Below the pieces are notes generated by a model. That model was not told the DNA's origin, made no database searches, and worked only from the letters and a program-made list of their open reading frames with translations. This document shows positions 3,412 through 55,225 of a stretch of 64,000 nt of DNA, one piece after another. Origin of the DNA: Candidatus Falkowbacteria bacterium (GTDB taxonomy: Bacteria > Patescibacteriota > Patescibacteriia > UBA11705 > JABHMO01); contig JABHAL010000001.1 in assembly GCA_018674305.1 (NCBI GenBank), positions 4,635-68,634 on the forward strand, in the 5' to 3' direction. Within the stretch, counting starts at the first letter, position 1, and each line of letters opens with the position of its first letter. The position numbers were made by a program, and so were the translations under genes.

Positions 3412-3561
3412 TTAAGACCTCCAATCTTTAAATGAACTAATTGTATATTCCATATTAACTCTTTTGTAGTGCTCTGTCAAGGCTAACTTAAAAACCCTCC
3501 TTTCTAAATTCTGAACACAGTTCAGGGCAACAGAAAGGAGGGTTTTTATATTTCTATACTT

Positions 3562-4680
3562 TTATAATTCCGAACGAATCTTTTCCATCAAGCTTAAATA
3601 AAACTCAAGGTTATTTAACGTTGCCAACCTCTGCGCTAATGGCTCATCAGTATTAAACATATGCCGTAAATATGCCTTGGAATAATTTCTTAACTCTGCA
3701 AACTGAGACTCAGCGTTGATTGGACTTTGATCGAACTTAAATTTCTCGTTCTTTATATTTATTGTTGAATAAAACTCTTTTCCTGCCTCTAAAATATTAT
3801 CTACTTGATTCTTATCACTTGAAGATTGAAACTTGTATAAACGTCCATGTCGCGCTTCCCGAGTTGGAATCACGCAATCAAACATATCAATTCCACGCTT
3901 GACTGCCTCCACAATCTGATGTGGATAGCCAACTCCCATTAAGTAACGTGGTTTGTCCTCAGGCAGGTGTGGGCAGGTCATTTCTAGAGCTGAATACATT
4001 TCTTGCTCAGACTCTCCTACTGCCAATCCACCAACTGCATAACCATCAAACCCAATTTTAATCAAATCCTTTGCACTCTTTTCTCGCAAATCAGGTTCCA
4101 AGCCACCCTGAACTATCCCGAATAATAGAGGTTGCTTGGTTAATTGGTTAATTAGGTGATTATTTAAAAAAGCTTTACACCGCTTAGCCCAAGCTGTAGT
4201 TAATTCAACTGATCTTTCCAAGTAATCACGCTCAGCTGGCAATTTCACACATTCATCTAGTACCATCATAATATCTGAACCAATGTTAATTTGGATTTTG
4301 ATTGATTCTTCAGGTGTCATGAAAAACTTTTTACCATCTAGATGTGAATTGAATTCAACTCCATCTGGGGTGATCTTACTAATCTTGGACAAAGAAAAAA
4401 CCTGAAAACCACCAGAATCTGTCAAGATCGGTTTTCCCCAATTCATAAATTTATGTAAACCACCCAGCTTCTTGATTTCCTCTGACCCAGGTCGGAGCAT
4501 TAGATGATAAGTATTACCCAGAATAACATCTGGACCTAGCTTCTCAACCTCCTGATAACTCAAAGTTTTAATCGCACCCTTGGTAGCAATCGGCATAAAA
4601 CAAGGGGTTTGGATTTTACCCTTGCGTGTAGTTAACTCACCTCGGCGAGCCTTACCTTTAGTTGTTTTTAGATTAAACAT
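3562..4680 (-). CDS. tgt: queuine tRNA-ribosyltransferase (tRNA-guanine transglycosylase)
   Basis: LTDSGGFQ, GGLAVGE and GIDMFDCV catalytic/substrate motifs; TIM-barrel Tgt family throughout. Confidence 0.85.
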   Translation of the reverse strand: MFNLKTTKGKARRGELTTRKGKIQTPCFMPIATKGAIKTLSYQEVEKLGPDVILGNTYHLMLRPGSEEIKKLGGLHKFMNWGKPILTDSGGFQVFSLSKISKITPDGVEFNSHLDGKKFFMTPEESIKIQINIGSDIMMVLDECVKLPAERDYLERSVELTTAWAKRCKAFLNNHLINQLTKQPLLFGIVQGGLEPDLREKSAKDLIKIGFDGYAVGGLAVGESEQEMYSALEMTCPHLPEDKPRYLMGVGYPHQIVEAVKRGIDMFDCVIPTREARHGRLYKFQSSSDKNQVDNILEAGKEFYSTINIKNEKFKFDQSPINAESQFAELRNYSKAYLRHMFNTDEPLAQRLATLNNLEFYLSLMEKIRSEL

Positions 4681-13506: not shown

Positions 13507-14910
13507 TTATTCATGTATAATCACTGGCGTGCTAATCGGTGCCCACTTGTAAAGTGCTTCTGCTGGACCAACACCAAGTCGAACGCAACCATGCGAAACT
13601 GCCTTCCCTAAATGATCTTCACCTTCTTTATAACCATTCGGCCATTCTGGCAACTCGTGTAACCCATAGCGGGGTTTAAACGACATCCACCAAGGCATAT
13701 ATAAACCATATGTTGCAGAATAGGCTCGTGGTGATTTTTGAAAAATTTTAAATTCGCCGAGAGGCGTGGGCATAGACTTCAATCCACTGGAAATTATATA
13801 TTGGTCAACTAATTTTCCATTTTGATAATATTTTAGTTTTTGTTCTGAAATATCAATATCAATATATTTATGTAAAAACCCCTTTCCACCATCTCCAAGT
13901 TGTTGTGGCATGGTTATCAATTCTAATTGATCATCATTATTAATGTCAGAATAGTCAACGTTTACTCCCCCGCGAAAATCCTCGTCGTAGGCAAAAAAAG
14001 ATGGCTTGTCTATCAATTCGCCAAATGAATCAAAGAAACGAACATGAGGACCACCACTGTAGCCAGCTCCAGTTACAATTATGTTTCGCTCCAAAGTTTT
14101 GGCAACTGAAAAATTAACACCTCCACCAAAGCCAGGATGATAAGCAAAAAACTCTTTGATCATCGAACCGTCTCGACGAAAAATTTTAACCTTAGGAGAA
14201 TTACCAGACCCTAAACCGACAATTACTTCTTCAATGCCGTCACTCCCCAAATCAACAGCTTCAATTTTTACTGGCTCAAAATTATTTTCCAATTCAATTT
14301 CAATCGGCTGACCAATCTCCTCACCAAACCTAGTAAAAAATTTGATCCAACCACGAGAACCTTCTATCACGCTAACAATAATTTCTTTTTGTGAATCGCC
14401 ATCCACATCACCAGCCGTCACTTCCACTCCACCGCGATAATCCTTGTTATGAGCCCAGAAACCAAATGTATATAGTGGCTGGCCCTGGCCGTTGAATATT
14501 CGTATTTGTGGCCCACCGCCCGCGCCAGGGCCAGCAATGATCTCTTCACGCCCATCTCCATCCAGATCTGCTACAGCTAATGAAATTTCACCTGTAAAAC
14601 CTGGGGCATATGGTTGCCATTGATTTTGCAAGTTGCCCTCAAAATCAAAAATCTGAATTGTTGGCTGATCTTGATTACCCAAAGCAACTGCCAACTGCTT
14701 ATTACCAGATCCCTGTAAATCAATAGTTTGAAACCGCAAGCTACCTGAAAAATCATTAGGCATGATGTCCAACGTCTTTTCTAGCTTCAAGTCTTGATCG
14801 TAAACCATTAAGTCCGGCAAATCGCTTGCCAAAGAAGTTTGGACAAATAAAAAAAGCCCCCCGCAAAGGACTAAAACAAAAATCACTTGACTTTTCATAT
14901 ATTTAAGCAT
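13507..14910 (-). CDS. secreted FG-GAP-repeat protein with C-terminal L,D-transpeptidase (YkuD) domain
   Basis: signal peptide; repeated DLDGDG.EEII.G.G.GGGP..R.F units; C-terminal SHGCVRL catalytic motif. Confidence 0.7.
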   Translation of the reverse strand: MLKYMKSQVIFVLVLCGGLFLFVQTSLASDLPDLMVYDQDLKLEKTLDIMPNDFSGSLRFQTIDLQGSGNKQLAVALGNQDQPTIQIFDFEGNLQNQWQPYAPGFTGEISLAVADLDGDGREEIIAGPGAGGGPQIRIFNGQGQPLYTFGFWAHNKDYRGGVEVTAGDVDGDSQKEIIVSVIEGSRGWIKFFTRFGEEIGQPIEIELENNFEPVKIEAVDLGSDGIEEVIVGLGSGNSPKVKIFRRDGSMIKEFFAYHPGFGGGVNFSVAKTLERNIIVTGAGYSGGPHVRFFDSFGELIDKPSFFAYDEDFRGGVNVDYSDINNDDQLELITMPQQLGDGGKGFLHKYIDIDISEQKLKYYQNGKLVDQYIISSGLKSMPTPLGEFKIFQKSPRAYSATYGLYMPWWMSFKPRYGLHELPEWPNGYKEGEDHLGKAVSHGCVRLGVGPAEALYKWAPISTPVIIHE

Positions 14911-14926
14911 GGTTCTTGGCTAATTA

Positions 14927-20039: not shown

Positions 20040-20300
20040 ATATTAAAGGAGGGATAAGGAGGCTATAGGAGATAACTATGAATTATTAGATTTTAGTTAT
20101 CCTCTTGCCCCTCTATATCTTCTTTATCTTATAATAATTAAAAAATCTGCGTTAAATTCCGCAGACATATCTAAAAAAGGATATATTCCTCGACAGGTAA
20201 TTAAGCCCCTGATAAAATAAGGACACCCGTTGTCTACGGAGATTAATTTAATTGTTATAGATATTATAAAGTAAATTTTAGATTACGTCAACCCCACTAA
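20040..20300 (-). promoter_or_regulatory. rplJ promoter (TTGACG, 17 nt, TATAAT at ~20265-20293) and ~215-nt leader, putative L10 autoregulatory leader
   Basis: consensus promoter on the gene strand; long structured leader typical of rplJL operons; leader ends in a CU-rich tract instead of an SD. Confidence 0.4.
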
Positions 20301-42958: not shown

Positions 42959-45900
42959 TTATTTGATCTGCACACTATCAGCCTTGGAATAATTAATTAT
43001 TGATGGACTATTACTAGATTGAATAGTTACCGGCTCAGCTCGGTATTCACCAAGAGCAGCTACTCGAGCATAGTACTTAAAGTAGTTTAGACCTTTACAC
43101 GGTTGCCAATTCTTATTCATACCAAACTTTATCTTCTGATCATTAATTTCGTAAGGATAACGTAGACCACACCAACTCCTAATACCAATTGAGTAAGGTC
43201 TAGTTACGCCTTTCAAACCACTTGGTAAAATATCGGTTATTTGATAATAACCATCGACCGAATCAACAGAAATCTGAGGATATAAACGAACCTCAATTAT
43301 ATCTCCAGCTGAAAAATGATTAACCTGCTGACCATCCACATAATATTGACGGTCAACTGACACATACTGACTAAATGCCTGATCAGTTACTTTTTCTTGA
43401 TAAATACTGGTTACGCCAATATCACCTTGTACGTCCTCAATTTTTAGCCTAGCCAACTGTTCAGGTAATAAGTCTAGCTTGAAGTTTTGACCATTTTCTA
43501 ATTCTTTTTTGTATTTTTTCCCATCAACGTTAACAGTGAAACTAACTGGCCCAACATTCAAGGTTGGCAGACGCTTTGTCAAATAATTAACTTCTTCTAA
43601 ATTGATCAAGACATCTTTAGTCCGGTGATCTGCCAGATAAGACCAAAGCCCTTTATGATATGGGTCATTCAGACCAGCTGCCAACACAGCAGCTAAACTT
43701 GTTGCCTGCAAAACATCATCTTGATCTTTGCCAGTTTTAATTCGGACATAAGAATCTAATTCTTCAGCATTTTCTTTCATTACCTCTAGATAAAGTTTAC
43801 GACCAAGTTCACGATCACCGATCTCAAATGCTGCCAATGCAATATATAATTTTTCTTTAACAGTAACATCTTCAAGTGTCGCAATATTTTGAATTGGCAA
43901 AAGCACAGGCTCTCCCAATCCAGCTAATCCGTAAAGGGAAATAATTACTTCCTCCTGACTAGACTCTTCTGAATTTAGTTTTGTGTAAAAATACTTTGAC
44001 AAAGAAACTTTATCAAATTCAGCCCCTGCAATTGAAGCAACTTTGGCACTCAATTCAAAGTCACTTGAACTATAAGGCAATAAAGTCAAACCACCTTTAC
44101 TCTCCTGATAAGTAGCTGAATTAAAGTTATCTACTTTGTATTCCTTACTGAAATACTGCTTAAATAACTTTTGAGCGGCAACTTTGGAAACTCTCTGGTC
44201 CAACCGATCTCCGTACTGCCAACTTAATCGAAGTAGTCGATGATAAAGCTGTCCAATACTCTCGTCCATAAAAACTAGAGTTGTTCTGTCCGTTGCCGAA
44301 CCAGAAATTTCCACGCCTGACTCATACTTATAATAATCCTGCACTTCTTTGGTCAACAAACTTTCAGCCACAGCAAATTTATTTATCAAGGTATCTTCAA
44401 GTTCACCCTTTTTGGCAGTTGAACTAATTTCATACTGTCCAACGCCAACTTCCCCTAGCGCTACGCTTAAAGCATCAAAAGCTTCCGTTTGTTTAACTAT
44501 TTTATTCAAGTCTAATGCTTCAGAACTAATTTCATAATCAATCACATCACCTGAAGTTAAAGTTTCACCATATGTTCGTAACTGCATAACAGGAGAATCC
44601 CCTTCCAAAAACTTATCTGGTAAAGTTGAGTTTATAAACAAAGGAAGACTAACCGGCAAGGCTGTTACCTCTCTACCAGCGTAAATATCCTTATTAATTG
44701 CCTGCGTAGTAATTCGCCATGAGGTTATATTATCAGGTAATTCAAATCTAACAGTTGCGCGACCAAATAAATCAGTCTTGGCCATTTTGAATAAAGCAGT
44801 ATCCTGAAAGTCTTCTCGCGCTCCACCTTTGTCATTGTGAACAAAGAAACCTTCTGCGAAATATGTGTGATATTTTTCAATATGTAAATTATAAACATCA
44901 ACCATTTGACCGAATCTCTCAATGCTCTCAATTTTAACTCTTTGACCAAATTCATCTAATAAATAATCACCTACTTTAGACTGACCAATCATCTGCCAAC
45001 CATTATTAACAAATACTCTATGCTCAGGAGTAACCCGCAACTTCCCATTAATTAGGTAATAGCCATAAACTGTATGCTCAAAAGTGTTTAACACTTTAGC
45101 TCTAACTAATTTCTTCGATAGCGGATCACTAAAAGTTAAGATCTCATCACCAATCTGAATTTCTTCAATATTCTTGTATGAGCCGTCAGCCATCTTGATC
45201 TGGGTACCAGCCACAAAACAACCGCCCATACCACTCGCATCAGGCGCCAAAGACAATGCTTCATGGGAAGCATAAGTCGTTTTTAGTCCAGCACTTTCCA
45301 ACTGATATACACTGGCCAAAATATCTGCCCAATCTTCGCTCAGCTGAAAAAAGGCTTCATCAACCAAACTTAAATTCAAAGTTGCTGCAACCGGATTTCC
45401 TTTTTGATTAGTAACTTTAACTTCTAATTCCACATCCTCACCTGGTGCATACTCCTCCTTATTTGAAGTAACTTCAACATTTAATTCTTTTTCTGAATAA
45501 TCATATCTGATTGATGTTCCACTGCTAGAACTATACCAATTGTTACTTCCGCTCTGATGATATTTCTCACCATCAAACCAAACTCCACTAACATAAATAT
45601 TTGGAATATAGCTATCCTTGAAGTTAAATTCGTAAACTGGTTCAGTTGACAATGAATAGTCAACTAGACCACGTCGCATCTTGTAGTACAAATAATCTTT
45701 CTTTTCCTGAGAAGATAAAATATCATTATTTTTTGTGAATTCCAAAATCACACTCTCGTCTACCTTAAACTTAACTTTATCACCCTTAATTGCCAACTTA
45801 TAATATTCGTAATTATTGGAACTATATGGATTGCCATAATATGAAGAGCCATACATTTGAGTGGATAAATAATTATTCCCTTGCTCATCAATGGCAATCA

Positions 45901-48505
45901 AGCGAATTTGGTAATAACTCTTTTCTTCAGTTTCAAATTCATAAGTAAACTCACCTGCGGCATCAGTTAAACCTGACATCTCATGAATAACTTTTTCTTC
46001 TTTTTCGTACTTGTATTTTTTATTAACGACCTTATTAATATAATCATACTCTTCACCAATTTCATTCTTGTGCCAAATTATTTGGATAATTTTACCTTTA
46101 ATAGCTGTATTTGGCGCCACTTCTTCCTCATCAACAACACTCCAAAGACTCCCTTTGGCCCTTTTCTCTAAATCGTATTTTTTCACTGTGGCCTTTATTT
46201 TTGCTGTTAATGAATTCTTTTCTTTTGGCGCAACTTCCATCTTGGTATAAACACGAGAGTTATAAGTATAGACATAAGCTGTTTGATTAATCTGTGCCAC
46301 TTCCGGTTGCGTTGAATTCAAATTTAAGTATACTGTTTGCATGTTGGAACAATATGTTTTTTCTAAAGTACACTTAGTCGCGACTGATGGCACCTCGATA
46401 CGCGCCTCACCAGCTAAGTCAACCTCGACTTCTCCTTTCACAGACTTATTACTGGAACTATAATCTAAAACTAAATCTGACACGGGAGTACCTTCAAAAA
46501 ATTCCGCATTAACATCAAAAACTGCAGTTTCTCCGGACCAAATCACTTTATTCTCTGGCTCAACCTTGATTTGATATGCTGGTTTATCGTAAGTCTGAAT
46601 ATTAATGTACTTAGTAGACAAAATCTCATCACCAAGTCTAACGTCCACATAATAATAACCCGGGACTAACTTTTCAAGCTTCAACTCACCAGAATAAACA
46701 AAATCAGGAGACACTTCAAGTTCTTGTTCTGCCAAACTTATTTCTTCATTATAATAATTATAATAACGAGCATAACTATTTTGCCGCAAAGCAACTGTAA
46801 CTTTTTCATCAATCCCCTTTGAATCCTTGGGTTTTACAAATCCCCAAAATTTAATAGTATCGTCAGGTTGAAATAAATTTCGATCAGTGTAAAAATATTT
46901 CCAATACTCTTTTTGCTCTTGTTTAGAAAAACTAACAGGAACAATAGTTACATCACCATCTTTTCGAACCCTCAAGTAGTCAGTCTCATATCGATCTTCC
47001 TCGCTAAAAACAAAAGCTGTGTCGGTATTAAATTTAGTAATTCCTTGACCGTCAGTACTTTTAGTAATTCCACTGGAAATTATTTTAACCTCAGCATTTT
47101 GAACTGACCCTTTATCCACAATACTATTAACCCAAACTAGGCTTTCACTGGTAGACACCATAGAAAATACTGCTAATTCACTAACTGAGAAAAAAGTCTG
47201 TCTTTTCACGTCCTGAACAGTTGATTCAATGACATAAAACCCCGGTTCATATACTTCTGGAAAAACTATAAACTTATTGTAATTAACTTCTCGAACTTCC
47301 AATTCATAGTCAGTTATATGACTAAGGGTATTAGTGTCAACCAAAGAAGACTCGCGATTATAGCTTGCCCAAGCAGGATAATCATATCTACTTTTCAGCG
47401 CCTCTAAATAAGCTGTATCATTGGCCAAGGAATAAACATTTAACTTAATTTTACTATCAAGTAAATTTCGTTCGTAAACTTTGAAGGCTGGCTCTCTAGT
47501 TGGAGAAAATTCTAGATAATCACCGATAATCATGAAGTAAGGTTTATTATTTGAACCTCGCTTATAATTTACCAATGGACTGGTCTCAAATTGCAGGGTG
47601 TAATCTTTTACCATTTTTTCATCTGACTCCGACAAAGGTAACTCCTTGTCTACAATTATTCTGTAAATAGTACCAGGCATTAAATTCTTGGGTACAAAAA
47701 CCCAAGTTCTTTTATGCTTTTCGAAACTTCCATCAACCTTTGGTTCAATTGTAAAATGTTTAGCAAACTCTTCCACATTGTCATGACTGAAAGTAAATTC
47801 AATTCCTGTATCAAGTGGTACCCCAGAACTTTTATCACGAGGCAAAGAGCCGATAATTTTGAATTGGTCTTTAGTTTGAAACGCCCAAGAATAATCTTGT
47901 TCAAATGTTAAACCGCTTTCTGCCATAATAGAGGCCGAAATTACAACACTATAAACAACTCGTGGTTGCAATGGTTCACTTGGAATAATCTTAAACTCAT
48001 GATCATTTACTTTTTTAAAACTAAACTCTAATTCAGGTTTGATCTGAATATTCTCTTCCAATAATTCTGAATCTACGACTTCTTTACTTTTAATAACAAA
48101 AGCAGTGTCCGACTCAACGCCAATACTATCACTAACTGTCGCCTCAACTGTAAAATTATCCTGCGCGTATGCTGGACTAATTATAAGTCGAGAAAATTCA
48201 CTGAAAGGTGAATCTTGGCCAGGCCAGTAATGACTAGCTGTTACAAGTAAAGCAAAAATCACCAGAACAGCTAGAACTGGAGATAAGCGCCTGACAGTAA
48301 AAAGTGAAGAAAATCCTTTTACAAAATTTAGCATATGTTTTTTTTGCTGCCGTTTTTCTAGGATCTTCGATTTTAATGCATAACGAAAATCATCAGAAGC
48401 AGGCTCATTTTTAAATTGTGCTTTTTTTAGCATACTCTCTGCTTCCTGTAACGGATGATTTTCACTTTTATTACGTTTTTTATTGTTATTGTTGTAATTT
48501 TGCAT
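42959..48505 (-). CDS. giant (1848 aa) surface protein: anti-sigma-like cytoplasmic N-terminus, TM, MG/Ig-like repeats, embedded Hint domain, alpha-2-macroglobulin-like TED region (no CGEQ)
   Basis: start 3 nt after the ECF sigma stop; TM LSPVLAVLVIFALLVTA at ~aa 75-95; LSLVDEAFFQL and ITSWRITTQAIN resemble A2M-family motifs; C...HN Hint domain. Confidence 0.6.
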   Translation of the reverse strand: MQNYNNNNKKRNKSENHPLQEAESMLKKAQFKNEPASDDFRYALKSKILEKRQQKKHMLNFVKGFSSLFTVRRLSPVLAVLVIFALLVTASHYWPGQDSPFSEFSRLIISPAYAQDNFTVEATVSDSIGVESDTAFVIKSKEVVDSELLEENIQIKPELEFSFKKVNDHEFKIIPSEPLQPRVVYSVVISASIMAESGLTFEQDYSWAFQTKDQFKIIGSLPRDKSSGVPLDTGIEFTFSHDNVEEFAKHFTIEPKVDGSFEKHKRTWVFVPKNLMPGTIYRIIVDKELPLSESDEKMVKDYTLQFETSPLVNYKRGSNNKPYFMIIGDYLEFSPTREPAFKVYERNLLDSKIKLNVYSLANDTAYLEALKSRYDYPAWASYNRESSLVDTNTLSHITDYELEVREVNYNKFIVFPEVYEPGFYVIESTVQDVKRQTFFSVSELAVFSMVSTSESLVWVNSIVDKGSVQNAEVKIISSGITKSTDGQGITKFNTDTAFVFSEEDRYETDYLRVRKDGDVTIVPVSFSKQEQKEYWKYFYTDRNLFQPDDTIKFWGFVKPKDSKGIDEKVTVALRQNSYARYYNYYNEEISLAEQELEVSPDFVYSGELKLEKLVPGYYYVDVRLGDEILSTKYINIQTYDKPAYQIKVEPENKVIWSGETAVFDVNAEFFEGTPVSDLVLDYSSSNKSVKGEVEVDLAGEARIEVPSVATKCTLEKTYCSNMQTVYLNLNSTQPEVAQINQTAYVYTYNSRVYTKMEVAPKEKNSLTAKIKATVKKYDLEKRAKGSLWSVVDEEEVAPNTAIKGKIIQIIWHKNEIGEEYDYINKVVNKKYKYEKEEKVIHEMSGLTDAAGEFTYEFETEEKSYYQIRLIAIDEQGNNYLSTQMYGSSYYGNPYSSNNYEYYKLAIKGDKVKFKVDESVILEFTKNNDILSSQEKKDYLYYKMRRGLVDYSLSTEPVYEFNFKDSYIPNIYVSGVWFDGEKYHQSGSNNWYSSSSGTSIRYDYSEKELNVEVTSNKEEYAPGEDVELEVKVTNQKGNPVAATLNLSLVDEAFFQLSEDWADILASVYQLESAGLKTTYASHEALSLAPDASGMGGCFVAGTQIKMADGSYKNIEEIQIGDEILTFSDPLSKKLVRAKVLNTFEHTVYGYYLINGKLRVTPEHRVFVNNGWQMIGQSKVGDYLLDEFGQRVKIESIERFGQMVDVYNLHIEKYHTYFAEGFFVHNDKGGAREDFQDTALFKMAKTDLFGRATVRFELPDNITSWRITTQAINKDIYAGREVTALPVSLPLFINSTLPDKFLEGDSPVMQLRTYGETLTSGDVIDYEISSEALDLNKIVKQTEAFDALSVALGEVGVGQYEISSTAKKGELEDTLINKFAVAESLLTKEVQDYYKYESGVEISGSATDRTTLVFMDESIGQLYHRLLRLSWQYGDRLDQRVSKVAAQKLFKQYFSKEYKVDNFNSATYQESKGGLTLLPYSSSDFELSAKVASIAGAEFDKVSLSKYFYTKLNSEESSQEEVIISLYGLAGLGEPVLLPIQNIATLEDVTVKEKLYIALAAFEIGDRELGRKLYLEVMKENAEELDSYVRIKTGKDQDDVLQATSLAAVLAAGLNDPYHKGLWSYLADHRTKDVLINLEEVNYLTKRLPTLNVGPVSFTVNVDGKKYKKELENGQNFKLDLLPEQLARLKIEDVQGDIGVTSIYQEKVTDQAFSQYVSVDRQYYVDGQQVNHFSAGDIIEVRLYPQISVDSVDGYYQITDILPSGLKGVTRPYSIGIRSWCGLRYPYEINDQKIKFGMNKNWQPCKGLNYFKYYARVAALGEYRAEPVTIQSSNSPSIINYSKADSVQIK
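44834..45220 (-). other. Hint / bacterial intein-like (BIL) domain, 129 aa, embedded in the giant protein
   Basis: GMGG|CFVAGTQIKMADG...HIEKYHTYFAEGFFVHN|DKGG: N-terminal Cys, block-A-like start, C-terminal His-Asn; the +1 residue is Asp, so a BIL-type cleavage module rather than a splicing intein; coordinates +/-1 nt. Confidence 0.6.
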
Positions 48506-49100: not shown

Positions 49101-50561
49101 TTAACGTTGGAATGGCCGGCAAGATTTACCTTTCTTAGCCCACATACCAACTCGGAACCTTTGAACAATCCGGTGAGTTCTGGATCCGTAAACCGGTGGC
49201 GGCTTGGTCAGGTCAACCTTGTCCGGTACTTGGTCCATGGAATAGTTAGAAGCAAGGAACTCTTGATGCGCCTGGCGGGCTACCTCCTCCCTTTCTCTCT
49301 CAATCTGCCATTTGGATTTTGGCGGCATTTTGACCACCTTGGCTTTTTTCTTTTTCTCAGGCTTTTTCCCGTCAACTTCTTTTCTGGTTGCTGTCTTCCT
49401 GGCAACATTGTTTTTTCTTTGTTCACGAGATTTTCGTCTTTGTACAGCCATAGCTCGAAAAAACTTCTTAACCAAGTTAGTATACTTGCTCCACTTTTGT
49501 AGAGCACGAGAACGAAAACGAACAGACCATTGCATTTTGCAGTTGATCAAGAAATAGGTAAAACCAAGAGCACCTGCTCCTGAAGCAAAATTTCCTAACC
49601 AGTATAAACCCTCCCCATGAGTGGGCACCTGCACAAAAGACCAAACAGCCAGAGTCATAATCCCGACCCAGACTAAAAAACCAATTGGAGAAAACGGTAG
49701 ATATTGACGTTTTTCATAAGGATATCCGCTCTTACTCCATAGCAGTCGAATTTCTGGATGCACTCTCCAATAAGCTTTCAACCATCCATCTCGACCACGA
49801 AGAACATTCCACACTTCCCGTCGAATAGAGATCGTTCGCCAACCGGCCATAAAAAATGCTGCACAGCCAAAGATAATTAACAAACTGCGAAACAACTTGG
49901 CAATCACTTCTGTGAACAGTAAATACAGCAAATAGCAAGGAACAGCTAAGACCTTAGGTATTGAAAGAATCTTGCGCCGTCTATACTGACACTCATCACG
50001 AGGCGGCTCTGAATGCAACCAATTTACATAGTGCCAAACCAACTTGCTAAACTTAGTTTCTGGCTCTTTAGCAAATAAAGCTTCTGGCACCTCCACTTCA
50101 ACAAGCTTAGAAGCAACTGACCTCCGAGGAAGATCATATAATCGATAAAACTCCAGACCCTGCCAAGAAATGCACTGATAAAAGCGGCCATTACGATCAC
50201 GCTCTAAAAGCCCCTTTATATACTCTTGGTCATCGTCACGAAAAGAAAAAACAAGCACACCAAGACGATGCTTGCCAGCACGCAGAAATTGCAGAAACTG
50301 CAGACCATCAGCAATTCGAAACAGCTGACGACGACCATAATCCCGATCATTCCTCCAATAATCACGATCCACCTTATCGGATTTTTCCAAGCACTGTTCA
50401 ATCAATAAAATATGAGTAGGGTTCTTGGCTAACAATTCTTCACCCAGTCCAATCTGAACTGGAATTGTAGCAGAATCCATCTCCTCTTTACCACCATTGA
50501 ATACTACTTTAAACTCTGGACTCAATGACTCATTTTCCGCAGCGGCTTGTAAATCTGACAT
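49101..50561 (-). CDS. hypothetical membrane protein with basic C-terminal tail
   Basis: 486 aa, 4-5 TM helices, ~45% GC versus ~32% background. Confidence 0.4.
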   Translation of the reverse strand: MSDLQAAAENESLSPEFKVVFNGGKEEMDSATIPVQIGLGEELLAKNPTHILLIEQCLEKSDKVDRDYWRNDRDYGRRQLFRIADGLQFLQFLRAGKHRLGVLVFSFRDDDQEYIKGLLERDRNGRFYQCISWQGLEFYRLYDLPRRSVASKLVEVEVPEALFAKEPETKFSKLVWHYVNWLHSEPPRDECQYRRRKILSIPKVLAVPCYLLYLLFTEVIAKLFRSLLIIFGCAAFFMAGWRTISIRREVWNVLRGRDGWLKAYWRVHPEIRLLWSKSGYPYEKRQYLPFSPIGFLVWVGIMTLAVWSFVQVPTHGEGLYWLGNFASGAGALGFTYFLINCKMQWSVRFRSRALQKWSKYTNLVKKFFRAMAVQRRKSREQRKNNVARKTATRKEVDGKKPEKKKKAKVVKMPPKSKWQIEREREEVARQAHQEFLASNYSMDQVPDKVDLTKPPPVYGSRTHRIVQRFRVGMWAKKGKSCRPFQR

Positions 50562-50720
50562 GCTTAACCTCCATTTAAATAGTCAAAGTTCAATATAACT
50601 AATTATAATATCAACTAATTACAAAAATGTCAACCCCGCCGCTCGCGAACAGCTGGGTCAAGGACTTAAGTAAAATAACCTAAAAGCCCCCTAATGGGGG
50701 CTTCTTCTTAAATTCTTATT

Positions 50721-51067: not shown

Positions 51068-52897
51068 TTATTCTAAAATCGCTTTTATTCTACGAACACC
51101 AGCTGAACTGGATTCTTCTTTTCTAATTTTAAAATGGCCCAAGTCACCAGTTTGTTCAACATGCGGACCGCCACACATTTCAGCACTCACATCACCGATG
51201 GAGAAAACTTTTACCACATCGCCATATTTATCTTCAAACAAACCAACCACACCACGTTCTTTTGCGTCCATATAGGGGATTTCTTCACACACAATCTGCA
51301 AGTCTTGTTTAATCCAATCATTAACTAAATCTTCAACTTGTTTTTTTTGTTCATCTGTCATCTTCTCTTCATGGGTAAAGTCAAAACGTAAACGATCAGG
51401 AGTAATGTTACTTCCCTTTTGTTTAATATGTTCGCCTAAAACTTGTTGTAATGCTGCTTGCAGTAAATGAGTGGCAGTATGCAACTTCGTGGTTGATTCA
51501 CCCTGATCAGCTAGACCACCTTTGAACTTTTGTTCAGCACCCGCGCGGGATAACTCTTGATGTTTTACAAATTCTTTTTCAAATTCTACTTCATCAACTG
51601 TAAGCCCTTGCTCGCCGGCTAATTCTTTAGTCATTTCCAAAGGAAATCCATAAGTAGAAAATAAATCAAATGCTTCTTCCCCAGTAATTTTGCTTTCTTG
51701 CTTTTTTTCTTTTTTACTTTCTTGCAATTTCCCAAGTTGCTTTAATCCATTCTCAAGTGTATGGGCAAACTTTTCTTCTTCCAAAACCAATTGATTGATA
51801 ATGAAATCTTTATTATTTTTCAATTCAGGATAAACATCTGCCATTTGTTTAATCACAACTTCAGCAATTTTAGATGTAAACACTTCTTCAATTCCTAGCT
51901 GTTTACCATAACGAACTGCGCGACGAATTAAACGCCGAAGAATGTAGCCTTGATCAACATTTGAGGGTTGAACTCCCTTTTCATCACCTAAAATGAAAGC
52001 TGCAGCTCGAACATGATCAGCAACAATGCGAAAAGCTGATTTATTGTCCTCATACTTTTTATCACAAAGCTCACTTATTTTTTCAAATAAAACGGCAAAC
52101 TCTTCAATATCAAATACTTCTTTTTCGCCATTCAAAACCGCTACCGTGCGTTCCAATCCCATGCCAGTGTCCACATTTTTCTTTTCTAGTGGAGTTAACT
52201 TACCAGCCGCATCTTTATCGAATTCCATAAACACGTCATTCCAAACTTCAAAAAACTTACCGTTATCTACCAGTTCATCAAAAGTTAATTCAGTGAACCC
52301 TTCTTCTGGTCGGGTGTCATAAAACATTTCTGAACATGGTCCGCAAGGTCCAATATTTAAGCCCCACCAATTATCTTCTGCTGGCAAAGCAAAAATGCGC
52401 ACATTTTCACTTGTCCATTTACCTTCTTTATCTAATTCGGCGGTAATATTAACTTTAGCAAACTGCTCTTGCCAAAGTTTAACGGATTCTTCGTCCAAAG
52501 GGGCTGAATCATCACCTTGAAAAACCGTAATATAAATTCGTTTAGGGTCTAAACCTAACCAATCTTTGGAAGTTAAAAATTCCCAACTCCATTCAATAGC
52601 TTCTTTTTTAAAATAATCACCTAAACTCCAATTGCCCAACATTTCAAAAAATGTTAAATGCCGATTATCTCCAACATCTTCAATATCGCCTGTACGAATA
52701 CATTTTTGTGAATCAACTAAACGAGTTCCACTAGCATGTTTTTCGCCCATTAAAAATGGTACTAATGGGTGCATTCCCGCCATAGTAAATAAAACTGTAG
52801 CATCATTTTCTGGAATTAATGAAGCTGATGGAATAATTTCATGTCCTTTACTTTTGAAAAAATCTAAGTATTTTTGTCTAAGTTCCTTCGTTGTCAT
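51068..52897 (-). CDS. alaS: alanine--tRNA ligase, catalytic + editing domains, no C-Ala domain
   Basis: class II motifs, the AlaRS tRNA-recognition region, and the editing-site H...H / CGG.H motifs (TATHLLQAAL, MCGGPHV). Confidence 0.9.
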   Translation of the reverse strand: MTTKELRQKYLDFFKSKGHEIIPSASLIPENDATVLFTMAGMHPLVPFLMGEKHASGTRLVDSQKCIRTGDIEDVGDNRHLTFFEMLGNWSLGDYFKKEAIEWSWEFLTSKDWLGLDPKRIYITVFQGDDSAPLDEESVKLWQEQFAKVNITAELDKEGKWTSENVRIFALPAEDNWWGLNIGPCGPCSEMFYDTRPEEGFTELTFDELVDNGKFFEVWNDVFMEFDKDAAGKLTPLEKKNVDTGMGLERTVAVLNGEKEVFDIEEFAVLFEKISELCDKKYEDNKSAFRIVADHVRAAAFILGDEKGVQPSNVDQGYILRRLIRRAVRYGKQLGIEEVFTSKIAEVVIKQMADVYPELKNNKDFIINQLVLEEEKFAHTLENGLKQLGKLQESKKEKKQESKITGEEAFDLFSTYGFPLEMTKELAGEQGLTVDEVEFEKEFVKHQELSRAGAEQKFKGGLADQGESTTKLHTATHLLQAALQQVLGEHIKQKGSNITPDRLRFDFTHEEKMTDEQKKQVEDLVNDWIKQDLQIVCEEIPYMDAKERGVVGLFEDKYGDVVKVFSIGDVSAEMCGGPHVEQTGDLGHFKIRKEESSSAGVRRIKAILE

Positions 52898-52963
52898 ATT
52901 AGAAAATTAACTATAATTAGCTATTTAAAATAATACAGCAAATTGCTATTTTTCGCAATGGTA

Positions 52964-52992
52964 TTGACAAATCCATCAATATTTGCTATAGT
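52964..52992 (+). promoter_or_regulatory. consensus sigma70 promoter P1 (TTGACA, 17 nt, TATAGT)
   Basis: ttgacaaatccatcaatatttgctatagt. Confidence 0.65.
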
Positions 52993-52999
52993 AAATGCA

Positions 53000-53126
53000 C
53001 AAAGACGGTGTGTCGCTGACACAAGCCTTAGGGCGTCGGCTTAACACATCTAGAGACTCTAAACCCATTCATGCAGTTAACATCTACGAAGGACCAGTGA
53101 TTCAATATCACTGGCCTTTTCTTTTG
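53000..53126 (+). ncRNA. candidate small RNA 1 (~125 nt, promoter P1 to terminator)
   Basis: bounded by P1 and the intrinsic terminator ccagtgattcaatatcactgg+ccttttctttt; contains GTGTGTC...AAGCCTTAGGGCG; no ORF. Confidence 0.45.
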
Positions 53127-53177
53127 TCTCGACGAGACTACTTTATTGTAATTTTAGTACATATCAACTAACATAGC

Positions 53178-53206
53178 TTGACTAATCTAAAAAAGTATGC
53201 TATAAT
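53178..53206 (+). promoter_or_regulatory. consensus sigma70 promoter P2 (TTGACT, 17 nt, TATAAT)
   Basis: ttgactaatctaaaaaagtatgctataat. Confidence 0.65.
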
Positions 53207-53212
53207 GCAATT

Positions 53213-53566
53213 GAACGTGATGAATAGCGTGTGTCTCCCCACTCTTCAAAAGCCTTAGGGCGAAGTTGTGGGTAAATAAAATTTTGTTATTATTAGTTAG
53301 AAAAAGAAAAGAAAAGAAAAAATCATTCATCACTTAGTTCACTTGTTCGTTCTTTTGCAGTCTTTTTTCATGGTTCTTGGTAGTTTTCTTTTTTGTCTCG
53401 TGGTAGTTCTCAGCTGGTAGACATAGTCTACCGAAAGAAAGCTACTAACAGATTAATTCTGTTAGTAGCAACATTTTCACTGCATATGCAGTGAAAAAAC
53501 TCGCCAACATGAGCCTTAGGGACTTGTTGGTTTAACCCCTTAATAAAATTAAGGGGTTTTTTCTTT
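53213..53566 (+). ncRNA. candidate small/structured RNA 2 (~350 nt, promoter P2 to terminator)
   Basis: terminator aaccccttaataaaattaaggggtt+tttttcttt; internal perfect hairpins (cactgcatatgcagtg; gctactaacag..ctgttagtagc); two copies of the AGCCTTAGGG motif; no ORF >20 codons. Confidence 0.4.
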
Positions 53567-53584
53567 ATTAGAATAAACTAAAAC

Positions 53585-53613
53585 TTGACATACTTAAGTA
53601 TCTGTGATATACT
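53585..53613 (+). promoter_or_regulatory. consensus sigma70 promoter P3 (TTGACA, 17 nt, TATACT)
   Basis: ttgacatacttaagtatctgtgatatact, 64 nt upstream of the 53677 ATG. Confidence 0.6.
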
Positions 53614-53676
53614 GTTAAATCAATAAACAATGATAACTTATCTTTTTAACTACAACATTTGAAGGAGATCAGAAAG

Positions 53677-54006
53677 ATGTCTAGCAGAAAGGAAACTCGG
53701 GTAGAAAAAGAGGCTCGGCTCGAAGCAACGGCTATTGCCAATGCGGCAGCTGGAAAGGTTGCCAACGCAGCCTCCACGGCCATCCTGGCCCAGGAACTGT
53801 TCGACGATGAGTTTGAGCGGGTTTACGAGGAAGCTTACCGCGACATTCTGCAAGATAAGCAGAATAAGGAGTTCTTCAGCGCTTGCGATGAGGATCCGCT
53901 TTTCAATGATGATCTTCAGAAAGAGCACGAGGAACTGTACTTCGCGAACCTCGCAGCTGAACAGGGTATTGCAAGGCCTCCGATCAATAAGGCCATCGAA
54001 GCATAA
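53677..54006 (+). CDS. small acidic protein (109 aa), ~52% GC
   Basis: ATG 7 nt after GAAGGAGA; Ala-rich then acidic (EELFDDEFERVYEEAYRD...); GC ~20 points above background; terminator follows. Confidence 0.5.
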   Translation: MSSRKETRVEKEARLEATAIANAAAGKVANAASTAILAQELFDDEFERVYEEAYRDILQDKQNKEFFSACDEDPLFNDDLQKEHEELYFANLAAEQGIARPPINKAIEA

Positions 54007-54020
54007 AAAAACCTACAACC

Positions 54021-54042
54021 CGGTAATATAGTTACCGGCGAC
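54021..54042 (+). terminator. hairpin terminator after the small acidic gene
   Basis: ccggtaatatagttaccgg perfect stem just after the stop codon; no T-run follows, so weak. Confidence 0.4.
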
Positions 54043-54071
54043 CGTATACTACATTGTGTGCGGTCTTTCTT

Positions 54072-54108
54072 TTAAAATAAAAAACAAAGAACTTGTCAAG
54101 CTCTTTGT
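54072..54108 (-). terminator. rho-independent terminator after mnmA
   Basis: acaaaga...tctttgt stem then tttttatttt on the minus strand. Confidence 0.55.
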
Positions 54109-54127: not shown

Positions 54128-55225
54128 CTACTCAATAACACCGCCACCTAAGCACTCCTCGCCTTTATAAAAAACACAATACTGTCCGGAAGTGATGGCG
54201 CGCTGAGGTTTTGTGAATTCAACCCGATATTTGCCTTGCGACAATTCATGAATTGTCGCTACGACAAAATCGCTTCGATAACGAATTTTACATTTACATT
54301 TTAATGGTAATTTTGGTTGCTCACCAGAAATCCAATTAACCGACCTCACAATCAATTCTTTTGAATCCAAGTCCTTTTCATCTTTACTTACCCAAAGGAT
54401 GTTTTTCTTTTTATCTAATTGAACAACATACCAAGGACCGCCGGCAAGACCAATCCCCTTCCGTTGGCCAATTGTATACAAAGGCAGTCCTTCGTGTTGG
54501 CCAAGAACATCTTCAGAACCAACGTCAACAATATTTCCCTTTTCAAATTTTATATACCTTTTTAAAAATTCGCCAACCTTGCCGTCTGCAACAAAACAAA
54601 TCTCTTGTGATTCTTTTTTACTAGCCGTTGATAAACCATATTTTTTTGCCAACTTGCGAACATTTGGTTTAGTGTAATCTCCCAATGGGAACAAAGTATG
54701 TTTTAAATGTTTTTGCTGGATTTGATGAAGGAAATATGACTGGTCTTTGTTTTTGTCGCGACCCGCGCGTAACAATGCGCGCGGTGGTAGAGACAATTCA
54801 TGAATTGTCTCTACCCGGGCATAATGCCCGGTCGCGACAAAATCAACTCCCATTGGTTTCAATTTCTTCCACAATTCCTCAAATTTAATATATTGGTTGC
54901 AACGCACACATGGATTTGGAGTATGACCACATTCATATTCATTAACAAAGTCATCTACAATCTTTTTCTTAAACGGAACTTTCATATCAATTACATAAAA
55001 CGGAACTCCAAGTTTATTACAAACTTGTCTCGCATCCTCTGATGACTCCAACGAACAACAAATATTTTCTCTAATTTTACCTTTAATATTCTCGCTCCAA
55101 AATTTCATAAAAACACCAATGACCTCATGGCCCTGTTCTTTTAATAATGCTGCAGCAACTGATGAATCAACACCGCCGGACATGCCTACTGCTACTCGTT
55201 GTTTAATTTCATTCTTCATAACCAT
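54128..55225 (-). CDS. mnmA: tRNA-specific 2-thiouridylase MnmA
   Basis: SGGVDSSVAA PP-loop, catalytic Cys, DKNKDQSYFL, C-terminal beta-barrel. Confidence 0.9.
   Translation of the reverse strand: MVMKNEIKQRVAVGMSGGVDSSVAAALLKEQGHEVIGVFMKFWSENIKGKIRENICCSLESSEDARQVCNKLGVPFYVIDMKVPFKKKIVDDFVNEYECGHTPNPCVRCNQYIKFEELWKKLKPMGVDFVATGHYARVETIHELSLPPRALLRAGRDKNKDQSYFLHQIQQKHLKHTLFPLGDYTKPNVRKLAKKYGLSTASKKESQEICFVADGKVGEFLKRYIKFEKGNIVDVGSEDVLGQHEGLPLYTIGQRKGIGLAGGPWYVVQLDKKKNILWVSKDEKDLDSKELIVRSVNWISGEQPKLPLKCKCKIRYRSDFVVATIHELSQGKYRVEFTKPQRAITSGQYCVFYKGEECLGGGVIE

What the first reader, a model, noticed from the sequence alone, without database searches (positions are those of the whole stretch)
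52898..53650. Promoter-dense 750-bp block: three consensus sigma70 promoters, two terminated noncoding transcripts sharing GTGTGTC...AAGCCTTAGGGCG
Three promoters sit within 650 bp. All have a TTGACA/TTGACT -35 and exact 17-nt spacing, the strongest promoters in the window. P1 drives a ~125-nt transcript ending at a textbook intrinsic terminator. P2 drives a ~350-nt transcript with several perfect hairpins, ending at another terminator. Both transcripts start with G(Y)GTGTGTC followed 10-25 nt later by AAGCCTTAGGGCG, and a third AGCCTTAGGGAC copy lies near the 3' end of transcript 2. None has an ORF. This looks like a small family of highly expressed structured sRNAs with a shared seed or protein-binding motif. 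They do not match tmRNA, RNase P, SRP or 6S RNA features I can recognise.
Basis: seen in the sequence. Interest (0 to 1): 0.7.

Follow-up and report, generated by a model that had tools for sequence, protein, structure and literature searches.

The report
Two unclassified small RNA genes
A candidate-phylum bacterium (Candidatus Falkowbacteria) carries two neighbouring genes for folded non-coding RNAs that match no described RNA family, display the same small hairpin three times, and are found in only one other related lineage; what they do is unknown.

Summary
Window 52960-53613 contains three 11/12 sigma-70 promoters with 17-nt spacers and TGn-extended -10 boxes. It also has two intrinsic terminators and three exact copies of AGCCTTAGGG, each capping a hairpin.

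The organism is a Candidatus Falkowbacteria (CPR). A relative with 78% AlaRS identity (L002) has the same two RNA genes. Promoters, terminators and all three motif hairpins are conserved, and the stems show compensatory and G-U changes that only work on the + strand. Rfam 15 and ARAGORN give no match.

More distant relatives have mnmA and alaS 72-97 bp apart. The 1.2-kb block (RNA1 of about 127 nt, RNA2 of about 354 nt, and an orphan acidic 109-aa helical protein) therefore sits in a variable spot upstream of alaS. One relative has the protein gene without the RNAs.

No further copy was found in the window, in relatives' alaS loci, or by exact-pattern scans of genome, metagenome and viral collections.

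Best reading: two paralogous, separately transcribed trans-acting RNAs that share a docking hairpin (A-rich bulge, GCC/GGC, UUAG loop). A protein partner is favoured over base pairing. Expression and function are untested. This is a new RNA family of a known kind, of moderate interest.

The parts
52964..52992 (+). Promoter P1 (TTGACA-17-TATAGT, TGn-extended -10); predicted start near 52999
   Evidence: The -35, the spacing and the TGCTAT start of the -10 region are conserved in L002.
52999..53125 (+). RNA1, predicted at about 127 nt
   Evidence: MFE -40.6 kcal/mol, z = -5.0. The L002 homologue has the same fold, z = -3.7. 78% identity to L002, against 53-61% in flanking spacers.
53007..53050 (+). 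RNA1 5' hairpin: GGUGUGU/ACACAUC, then GCUGAC/GUCGGC, capped by motif copy 1 (CACAAGCCTTAGGGCG, 53020-53035)
   Evidence: Consensus fold with L002 shows one G:C to A:U double change and one U-G to C:G change in the inner stem. CM R1 score 39.4 bits.
53094..53125 (+). Terminator T1 (CCAGUGAU...AUCACUGG plus U tract)
   Evidence: conserved in L002.
53178..53206 (+). Promoter P2 (TTGACT-17-TATAAT, TGn-extended); predicted start near 53213
   Evidence: A 22-nt block spanning the -10, AAAAAAGTATGCTATAATGCA, is identical in L002.
53213..53566 (+). RNA2, predicted at about 354 nt
   Evidence: MFE -104.6 kcal/mol, z = -5.4. L002 homologue z = -4.7. 77% identity to L002.
53213..53340 (+). Long-range stem GAACGUGAUGAAU (53213-53225) with AUUCAUCACUUAGUUC (53325-53340), enclosing motif hairpin 2
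   Evidence: 13 predicted pairs, all invariant between window and L002, so they give no covariation evidence.
53238..53272 (+). Motif hairpin 2 (CCCAC/GUGGG, CUUC/GAAG, capped by CAAAAGCCTTAGGGCG at 53247-53262)
   Evidence: R1 score 39.2 bits.
53363..53379 (+). 17-nt stretch TTTTTTCATGGTTCTTG, identical in L002, inside a U-rich tract (about 53356-53400) that can pair with the A-rich tract 53298-53322
   Evidence: inverted repeat I2.
53416..53497 (+). Three consecutive hairpins: 53416-53432, 53441-53469 (12 bp perfect, near-identical in L002) and 53474-53497 (replaced in L002 by a different sequence that again forms a 9-10-bp hairpin)
53504..53530 (+). Motif hairpin 3 (CCAACA/UGUUGG, capped by CATGAGCCTTAGGGAC at 53508-53523), 3 nt before T2
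   Evidence: R1 score 32.7 bits. The L002 copy has stem GCCAGC/GUUGGC with the canonical cap.
53534..53566 (+). Terminator T2 (11-bp stem plus U tract)
   Evidence: Three double compensatory changes relative to L002.
53585..53613 (+). Promoter P3 (TTGACA-17-TATACT, TGn-extended) for the 109-aa gene
   Evidence: L002 and L052 each have their own near-consensus promoter before the homologous gene.
53677..54006 (+). Orphan 109-aa acidic helical protein gene (AAGGAG ribosome-binding site at 53662-53667). It is a neighbour in the same inserted block, not shown to work with the RNAs.
   Evidence: Codon-position identities 0.82/0.87/0.66 against L002. pI 4.5. AlphaFold2 predicts a long helix at 8-72, pLDDT 78. 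Only two relatives among 1.8 billion representative proteins at E<=1e-10. No Pfam, PHROG or PADLOC hit.
54020..54073 (+). Conserved 3'UTR hairpin (54020-54038) plus terminator T3 (54040-54065)
   Evidence: 82-85% identical in L002 and L052, behind homologues of different length.

Best explanation
SHOWN.
- Window 52964-53566 holds two separate transcription units, each with a near-consensus promoter and an intrinsic terminator. They specify structured RNAs of about 127 and 354 nt on the + strand.
- The RNAs are partial paralogues. Together they display three copies of one capped hairpin: a variable, covarying stem; a 3-4-nt A-rich 5' bulge (ACAA, AAAA or UGA); a GCC/GGC mini-helix; and a UUAG loop.
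- The pair, plus an orphan acidic helical protein gene, forms a 1.2-kb + strand block between mnmA and alaS, both on the - strand. These two genes are adjacent in more distant relatives.
- The RNAs are known from only two Falkowbacteria lineages.

INFERRED.
- Both RNAs act in trans.
- The invariant cap is a docking site for one common partner. That partner is most likely an RNA-binding protein not yet identified and not the acidic neighbour.
- With one site on RNA1 and two on RNA2, the RNAs would titrate, scaffold or deliver that partner, in the manner of hairpin-loop decoy RNAs.

I rate 'genuine structured non-coding RNA genes' at about 0.8 and the protein-docking mechanism at about 0.35. The confidence value given for this entry (0.4) refers to the whole statement including the inferred mechanism.
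For: - Promoters and terminators are present.
- Both RNAs fold far better than shuffles in both species.
- The whole arrangement is conserved in L002, where AlaRS is 78% identical. RNA identity is 0.77-0.78, against 0.53-0.61 for flanking spacers and 0.63 for alaS third codon positions.
- Compensatory changes occur in the RNA1 inner stem and in T2. One hairpin is wholly replaced yet still forms a hairpin.
- G-U pairs exist only on the + strand.
- Across the six motif hairpins, 85% of cells pair, against 31-52% when partners are slid. The covariation score is 0.356 against 0.134 in shuffles (0/500 as high). The cap's two inner C:G pairs are invariant in all six copies; the outer G:C holds in five.
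- Five of the six copies share CAHAAGCCTTAGGGCG.
- No sequence complementary to the motif occurs elsewhere in the 64-kb window, and the motif is closed in a mini-helix. Both points fit docking better than a single-stranded seed.
- There is no Rfam or ARAGORN match.
- Relatives show the empty site.
Against: - Only two distinct sequences exist, so covariation statistics are thin.
- There is no expression data.
- No candidate binding protein has been identified.
- The covariance model found no further motif hairpin in 64 kb or in relatives' alaS loci. A regulator with many mRNA targets is therefore not visible, although most of the genome was not searchable.
- Any hairpin cap is partly self-complementary, so RNA-RNA kissing cannot be excluded.
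- L052 keeps the neighbouring protein gene without the RNAs, so no functional link to the neighbour can be used as support.
Confidence: 0.4

Rival explanations
1. These are base-pairing regulatory RNAs. The shared loop (a CUUA/UUAG, YUNR-like turn) or the conserved unpaired stretches pair with mRNAs, as the C-rich loops of Staphylococcus RNAIII and Rsa RNAs do.
For: - The stretch TTTTTTCATGGTTCTTG is invariant and predicted to be unpaired.
- Its CAUGGUUCUUGG is perfectly complementary to -9..+3 of the start of an L,D-transpeptidase gene at 14908-14919 on the - strand.
- Conserved unpaired patches exist in RNA1.
Against: - No complement of the shared motif occurs in 64 kb.
- The 12-nt match is marginal after multiple testing: 16 matches of at least 12 nt observed against 7.5 expected, mostly low-complexity.
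- Conservation of the target site could not be tested in the relative.
Confidence: 0.25
2. This is a type I toxin-antitoxin-like module. RNA2 is a structured mRNA for a 23-25-aa hydrophobic peptide, and RNA1 is its antitoxin, recognising RNA2 through loop-loop contacts between the identical self-complementary caps.
For: - An in-frame hydrophobic ORF exists in both species: MFVLLQSFFMVLGSFLFCLVVVLSW and MFIRFAVFFMVLGLLVCFVLWSF.
- The strongest conserved RNA1-RNA2 duplexes are motif to motif, at -23 to -25 kcal/mol.
- The block lies in an accessory spot and the genome uses few Shine-Dalgarno sites (8 of 44 genes).
- The 5' end of RNA2 pairs next to the ORF start.
Against: - An open frame is expected from composition alone (P = 0.6-0.76), and all three frames are open in L002.
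- A compensated frameshift inside the ORF keeps the nucleotides but not the residues (and my reading).
- There is no antisense or extended complementarity as in known type I pairs.
- The RNA1 segment that pairs with the start region in the window is not conserved in L002.
Confidence: 0.08
3. These are cis-acting leaders. The 5'-proximal hairpins modify RNA polymerase or bind a factor or ligand so that T1 and T2 are read through into the 109-aa gene, in the manner of nut/put antitermination or a riboswitch.
For: - Motif hairpins lie 8-25 nt after each predicted start.
- The third hairpin lies 3 nt before T2.
- All three units share one orientation.
Against: - P2 and P3 are independent, conserved near-consensus promoters.
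- L052 expresses the homologous gene from its own promoter with no RNAs upstream.
- T1 and T2 are strong and conserved.
- No alternative antiterminator pairing is conserved.
Confidence: 0.08
4. These are DNA-level elements: operator sites for a repressor, or recombination sites of a cassette system at the alaS hotspot.
For: - The site upstream of alaS carries different cargo in different relatives.
- Near-palindromic sequences are present, including a 12-bp perfect inverted repeat at 53441-53469.
Against: - Stems flanking the motif covary and use G-U pairs, which would be A-C mismatches on the other strand and are irrelevant in duplex DNA.
- No recombinase, target-site duplication or terminal repeats were found.
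Confidence: 0.04
5. These are divergent housekeeping RNAs (SRP, 6S, RNase P, tmRNA), a T-box for alaS, or non-functional remnants.
For: The sizes of about 120 and 350 nt are in the range of such RNAs. The position next to alaS could suggest a T-box.
Against: - No Rfam hit even at E<=10, and the weak hits differ between the two homologues.
- ARAGORN finds nothing.
- The RNAs are transcribed away from alaS.
- They are absent from relatives' alaS loci and from exact-pattern scans of 185,579 species genomes.
- Conservation above the neutral level argues against remnants.
Confidence: 0.03

Closest known systems
Staphylococcus aureus RNAIII and Rsa RNAs (several RNAs sharing one loop motif)
   Same: Several separately transcribed, terminator-ended structured RNAs of 100-500 nt repeat the same short motif in hairpin loops. 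The larger RNA has many hairpins and a possible small ORF.
   Different: The motif is not C-rich or anti-Shine-Dalgarno. No complementary targets were seen in the window. There is no sequence or Rfam relationship; RsaOG and RsaA appear only as chance-level hits at E = 0.1-1 in L002.
CsrB/RsmZ-type protein-sponge RNAs
   Same: A repeated hairpin-presented motif on strongly transcribed non-coding RNAs, with paralogous RNAs of different size.
   Different: There are only 1 and 2 sites rather than about 5-20. Five of the six caps read AGGGC and lack the GGA core. No CsrA-like partner is known here.
Type I toxin-antitoxin loci (e.g. ibs/sib, fst par)
   Same: A short RNA lies next to a longer structured RNA with a tiny hydrophobic ORF, in an accessory position with narrow distribution. 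Loop-loop (YUNR-type) recognition is conceivable.
   Different: The two RNAs are tandem and co-oriented, with no antisense overlap. The ORF is not distinguishable from a composition artefact.
Phage operator and boxB-type hairpins (MS2 operator, lambda nut boxB)
   Same: A short stem with a 5' purine-rich bulge and a small loop of fixed sequence on a variable lower stem, close to the 5' end of transcripts.
   Different: The sequence differs. No coat or N-like protein is present: the neighbouring protein is acidic, pI 4.5. There are no viral matches.

Membership tests
Any Rfam 15 family | Covariance-model score at or above the family's gathering threshold | tested here: not met
   The only hit in the window is the L10 leader at 20131-20257. 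In the region the best scores are at most 22 bits against thresholds of 37-80. The weak hits differ between window and L002.
tmRNA / tRNA-like | tRNA-like domain and tag reading frame detectable by ARAGORN | tested here: not met
   ARAGORN finds no genes in the window.
T-box leader of alaS | Lies on the alaS strand upstream of its start, with specifier loop and T-box sequence | tested here: not met
   The RNAs are on the opposite strand and give no T-box hit at E<=10.
CsrB/Rsm sponge RNAs | Many hairpin loops carrying the ANGGA/GGA core | tested here: not met
   Five of the six caps read UUAGGGC. Only window copy 3 has AGGGA.
Type I toxin-antitoxin | Conserved small hydrophobic toxin ORF under coding constraint | tested here: inconclusive
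   The ORF is present in both species. It is expected by chance in the A-poor tract (P = 0.6-0.76) and has an internal compensated frameshift.
Type I toxin-antitoxin | Antitoxin RNA with antisense or extended complementarity to the toxin mRNA | tested here: not met
   The genes are co-oriented and do not overlap. The only conserved complementarity is cap to cap.
Type III toxin-antitoxin (toxIN-like) | Tandem array of RNA repeats followed by an endoribonuclease toxin gene | tested here: not met
   Repeat copies lie 227 and 261 nt apart and are not tandem. The downstream protein is an acidic long helix with no PADLOC or Pfam hit.
Trans-encoded bacterial small RNA gene (generic kind) | Own promoter, intrinsic terminator, no conserved coding frame, and conserved structure in relatives | tested here: met
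Trans-encoded bacterial small RNA gene (generic kind) | Detected as a discrete transcript | not testable with these tools
   No RNA-seq or metatranscriptome mapping was available.

The most novel reading that the evidence does not exclude
The two RNAs are an RNA-only accessory module of an uncultivated CPR bacterium. Its identical, self-complementary caps would let RNA1 and RNA2 assemble with each other by loop-loop kissing, or load several copies of a lineage-specific RNA-binding protein. That would be a regulatory or addiction device with no described counterpart, acquired at a variable spot upstream of alaS.
Probability: 0.12. Interest if true: 0.7.

Novelty: new member of a known kind. Interest (0 to 1): 0.42.

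Why it matters
To my knowledge, almost nothing is known about regulatory RNAs in candidate-phyla-radiation bacteria. They are uncultivated, have tiny genomes and few recognisable regulators.

This locus offers a clean candidate: two promoter-to-terminator RNA genes with a sharply defined, thrice-repeated hairpin under selection. The hairpin could be synthesised and used as bait to find its partner.

The locus also illustrates a pattern in this genome. Accessory cassettes, each with its own near-consensus promoter and terminator, sit between conserved housekeeping genes.

The limits are real. There are only two lineages, no expression data and no function, so at present it is a lead rather than a discovery.

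Tried and rejected
- Rfam at gathering and at E<=10, on the window and on the L002 homologue: no consistent family.
- ARAGORN: nothing.
- Plasmid BLAST of the region: no match.
- Exact-pattern scans:
  - Viral contigs with CAHAAGCCTTAGGGCG gave 35 hits, none in a comparable hairpin context and most recurring in a few conserved sequence contexts, apparently coding.
  - Three further viral patterns gave 0, 1 (apparently within an ORF, unrelated) and 0 hits.
  - 185,579 species genomes with GTGTGTN{5,20}AAGCCTTAGGGCG gave 8 hits, none CPR and none a hairpin.
  - JGI metagenomes with the double-motif pattern gave 77 hits, none similar to the block by blastn.
  - These scans also failed to return the window's own sequence. 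The collections evidently do not contain it, so absence elsewhere is weaker than it looks.
- Synteny walk through AlaRS relatives. Only L002 has the RNAs. L052 has only the protein gene. L053 and L135 have the empty site. L050, L136 and L137 carry other cargo.
- A closer strain (L140) is identical where it overlaps the block and ends before the RNAs.
- The covariance model of the hairpin found only the six known copies.
- Protein neighbour: Pfam, PHROG, PADLOC and a profile search of 1.8 billion representative proteins gave essentially nothing. The AlphaFold2 model is a long helix, so no fold search was run.
- Long-window duplex predictions against neighbouring mRNAs were uninformative.
- Literature searches for CPR small RNAs and for the motif string found nothing relevant.
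- Considered and dropped from reading the sequence only: retron, integron attC, SRP domain IV, boxA, K-turn/box C-D, and an anticodon-loop mimic. In each case a defining element is missing.

Full report
**What is in the sequence.**
- The finding lies between alaS (51068-52897, - strand, 609 aa; Pfam tRNA-synt_2c) and mnmA (54128-55225, - strand).
- A consensus scan finds three + strand promoters scoring 11/12, each with a 17-nt spacer and TG before the -10. They start at 52964, 53178 and 53585.
- Terminator-like hairpins with U tracts lie at 53094-53114 and 53534-53558.
- The predicted units are therefore RNA1 (about 52999-53125) and RNA2 (about 53213-53566).
- AGCCTTAGGG occurs exactly three times in 64 kb, all here, at 53024, 53251 and 53512. 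GTGTGTC occurs only at 53008 and 53229.
- Both RNAs fold much better than dinucleotide shuffles: z = -5.0 and -5.4, with no shuffle as good.
- Each motif copy caps a hairpin built the same way: a stem, a 3-4-nt A-rich 5' bulge, a GCC/GGC mini-helix and a UUAG loop.
- The third promoter drives a 109-aa ORF (53677-54006) with an AAGGAG ribosome-binding site and 52% GC, in a genome of 36% GC.
Two 12/12 promoters exist elsewhere in the window, and short ORFs do exist.

**Organism and relatives.**
- AlaRS and MnmA are identical to proteins that NCBI names Candidatus Falkowbacteria bacterium. This is a candidate-phyla-radiation genome.
- The 109-aa protein has one close homologue, P0001 at 73% identity. 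Its contigs L002-L006 again lie next to alaS.
- L002 carries the whole arrangement: P1-RNA1-T1, P2-RNA2-T2, a promoter, an extra 127-aa membrane ORF, and the 109-aa homologue with the same 3'UTR.
- All three L002 motif copies read CAHAAGCCTTAGGGCG.

**Evidence for selection on RNA structure.**
- Window and L002 share 78% AlaRS residues and 63% of alaS third codon positions.
- The RNA units are 77-78% identical, while the spacers beside them are 53-61% identical.
- The RNA1 inner stem changes from GCUGAC/GUCGGC to CCAAC/GUUGG, with one double change and one U-G to C:G change.
- T2 has three double compensatory changes. One RNA2 hairpin (53474-53497) is replaced in L002 by an unrelated sequence that again forms a 9-10-bp hairpin.
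- Several pairs are G-U on the + strand, so they would be A-C mismatches on the other strand. This fixes the strand and argues against a duplex-DNA site.
- Treating the six motif hairpins as one alignment, 85% of cells pair, against 31-52% when partners are slid. The covariation score is 0.356 against 0.134 in shuffles (0/500 as high). The cap's two inner C:G pairs are invariant in all six copies; the outer G:C is kept in five.
- With only two species this is suggestive, not statistically strong.
- The 109-aa gene shows a coding pattern of position identities (0.82/0.87/0.66) and an in-frame 9-nt indel.

**Known families.**
- Rfam 15 gives only an L10 leader elsewhere in the window.
- At E<=10 the region yields only sub-threshold hits, and these differ between the two homologues.
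- ARAGORN finds nothing.
- The RNAs point away from alaS, so they cannot be its T-box leader.

**Genomic setting.**
- In L053 and L135 (AlaRS 69-70% identical), peptidase S11, mnmA and alaS follow one another, with only 97 and 72 bp between mnmA and alaS.
- The 1.2-kb + strand block in the window is therefore an insertion at that junction.
- L052/L134 (AlaRS 75%) carries a 143-aa homologue of the acidic protein. It has its own consensus promoter and the same 3'UTR double hairpin, but no RNAs.
- L050, L136 and L137 carry other orphan ORFs at the same place.
- The site upstream of alaS is thus a variable spot, and the RNAs are an accessory element seen in two lineages.

**Search for further copies.**
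- The covariance model of the hairpin scores only the six known copies (33-40 bits; next best under 10 bits). This holds in the window and in all relatives' loci.
- Exact-pattern scans of viral contigs, one genome per 185,579 species, and JGI metagenomes returned only unrelated matches.
- These scans need exact motif conservation and did not contain the window's own sequence, so they set only a weak upper bound on distribution.

**The neighbouring protein.**
- It is acidic, with pI 4.5.
- It is predicted as one long helix plus a short one.
- It has no family assignment.
- It has only two relatives at E<=1e-10 among 1.8 billion representative proteins.
- It exists without the RNAs in L052. It is therefore an unlikely binder of the hairpin, and its link to the RNAs is positional only.

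**Mechanism.**
That is the signature of a recognition element presented by a hairpin.
- The motif is closed in a mini-helix, and no complementary site exists in the window. I therefore favour a common protein partner (decoy or scaffold) over a single-stranded seed.
- The cap is inherently self-complementary. The best conserved RNA1-RNA2 duplexes are cap to cap, at -23 to -25 kcal/mol, so loop-loop contacts remain possible.
- A base-pairing role for the invariant unpaired 17-mer TTTTTTCATGGTTCTTG is a live rival. Twelve of its bases are perfectly complementary to the start region of an L,D-transpeptidase gene. The statistics are marginal, and I could not test conservation of the site.
- A type I toxin reading rests on a 23-25-aa hydrophobic ORF. 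Composition alone explains that ORF: P(open frame) is 0.6-0.76, and all three frames are open in L002.
- The cis-leader reading is weakened by the conserved independent promoters P2 and P3, and by L052.

**Verdict.** The RNAs belong to no described family and have a very narrow known distribution. Function is unknown. The docking-hairpin model is the best-supported guess, at about one in three. This is a new RNA family within a familiar kind of element, of moderate interest mainly because it comes from a CPR bacterium and offers a crisp motif to test.

Noticed in passing
window 49101-50561 (- strand), promoter 50633..50605: A 486-aa orphan ORF with 43-47% GC in a 36% GC genome. It has its own 11/12 TGn-extended promoter and a GGAGG ribosome-binding site, and no Pfam, PHROG or PADLOC hit. 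It is absent from L002, where the upstream 117-aa gene is followed directly by the ECF sigma gene. It looks like another inserted cassette.
   Followed up: partly
window 54020-54073; L002 about 4370-4420; L052 about 385-460: A 3'UTR double hairpin (CCGGUAAY-NNA-GUUACCGG, then a terminator) is 82-85% identical behind three homologous acidic-protein genes of different length. In L052 the stop codon lies inside the first hairpin.
   Followed up: partly
alaS upstream region in L050, L052, L053, L135, L136, L137: The junction upstream of alaS is a variable spot. It is empty (72-97 bp) in two relatives and filled with different orphan ORFs in the others. These include about 60% GC ORFs behind AT-rich consensus promoters in L050.
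   Followed up: partly
whole window: Only 8 of 44 crudely called genes have a Shine-Dalgarno-like sequence. Those that do include the GC-rich cassette genes.
   Followed up: no
window 14908-14919 (- strand), start of the L,D-transpeptidase gene 13507-14910: CCAAGAACCATG, spanning the start codon, is perfectly complementary to the invariant CAUGGUUCUUGG of RNA2 (53370-53381). The statistics are marginal and conservation was not tested.
   Followed up: partly
L002 about 3438-3459: The hairpin that replaces window 53474-53497 has a UUAG loop closed by C:G (AUCAUC-UUAG-GAUGAU). This echoes the core of the shared motif. It may be a fourth, degenerate copy or a coincidence.
   Followed up: no
L002 3657-4040: An extra 127-aa ORF with N-terminal hydrophobic segments lies between P3 and the acidic-protein gene. 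The window has a clean deletion of it, including its ribosome-binding site.
   Followed up: no
window 20131-20257 (- strand): Ribosomal protein L10 leader, the only Rfam match at gathering threshold in the window (55.3 bits).
   Followed up: no
window 42959-48505 (- strand): A 1848-aa alpha-2-macroglobulin-like protein with faint or weak intein/Hint-domain hits in precomputed Pfam annotations.
   Followed up: no
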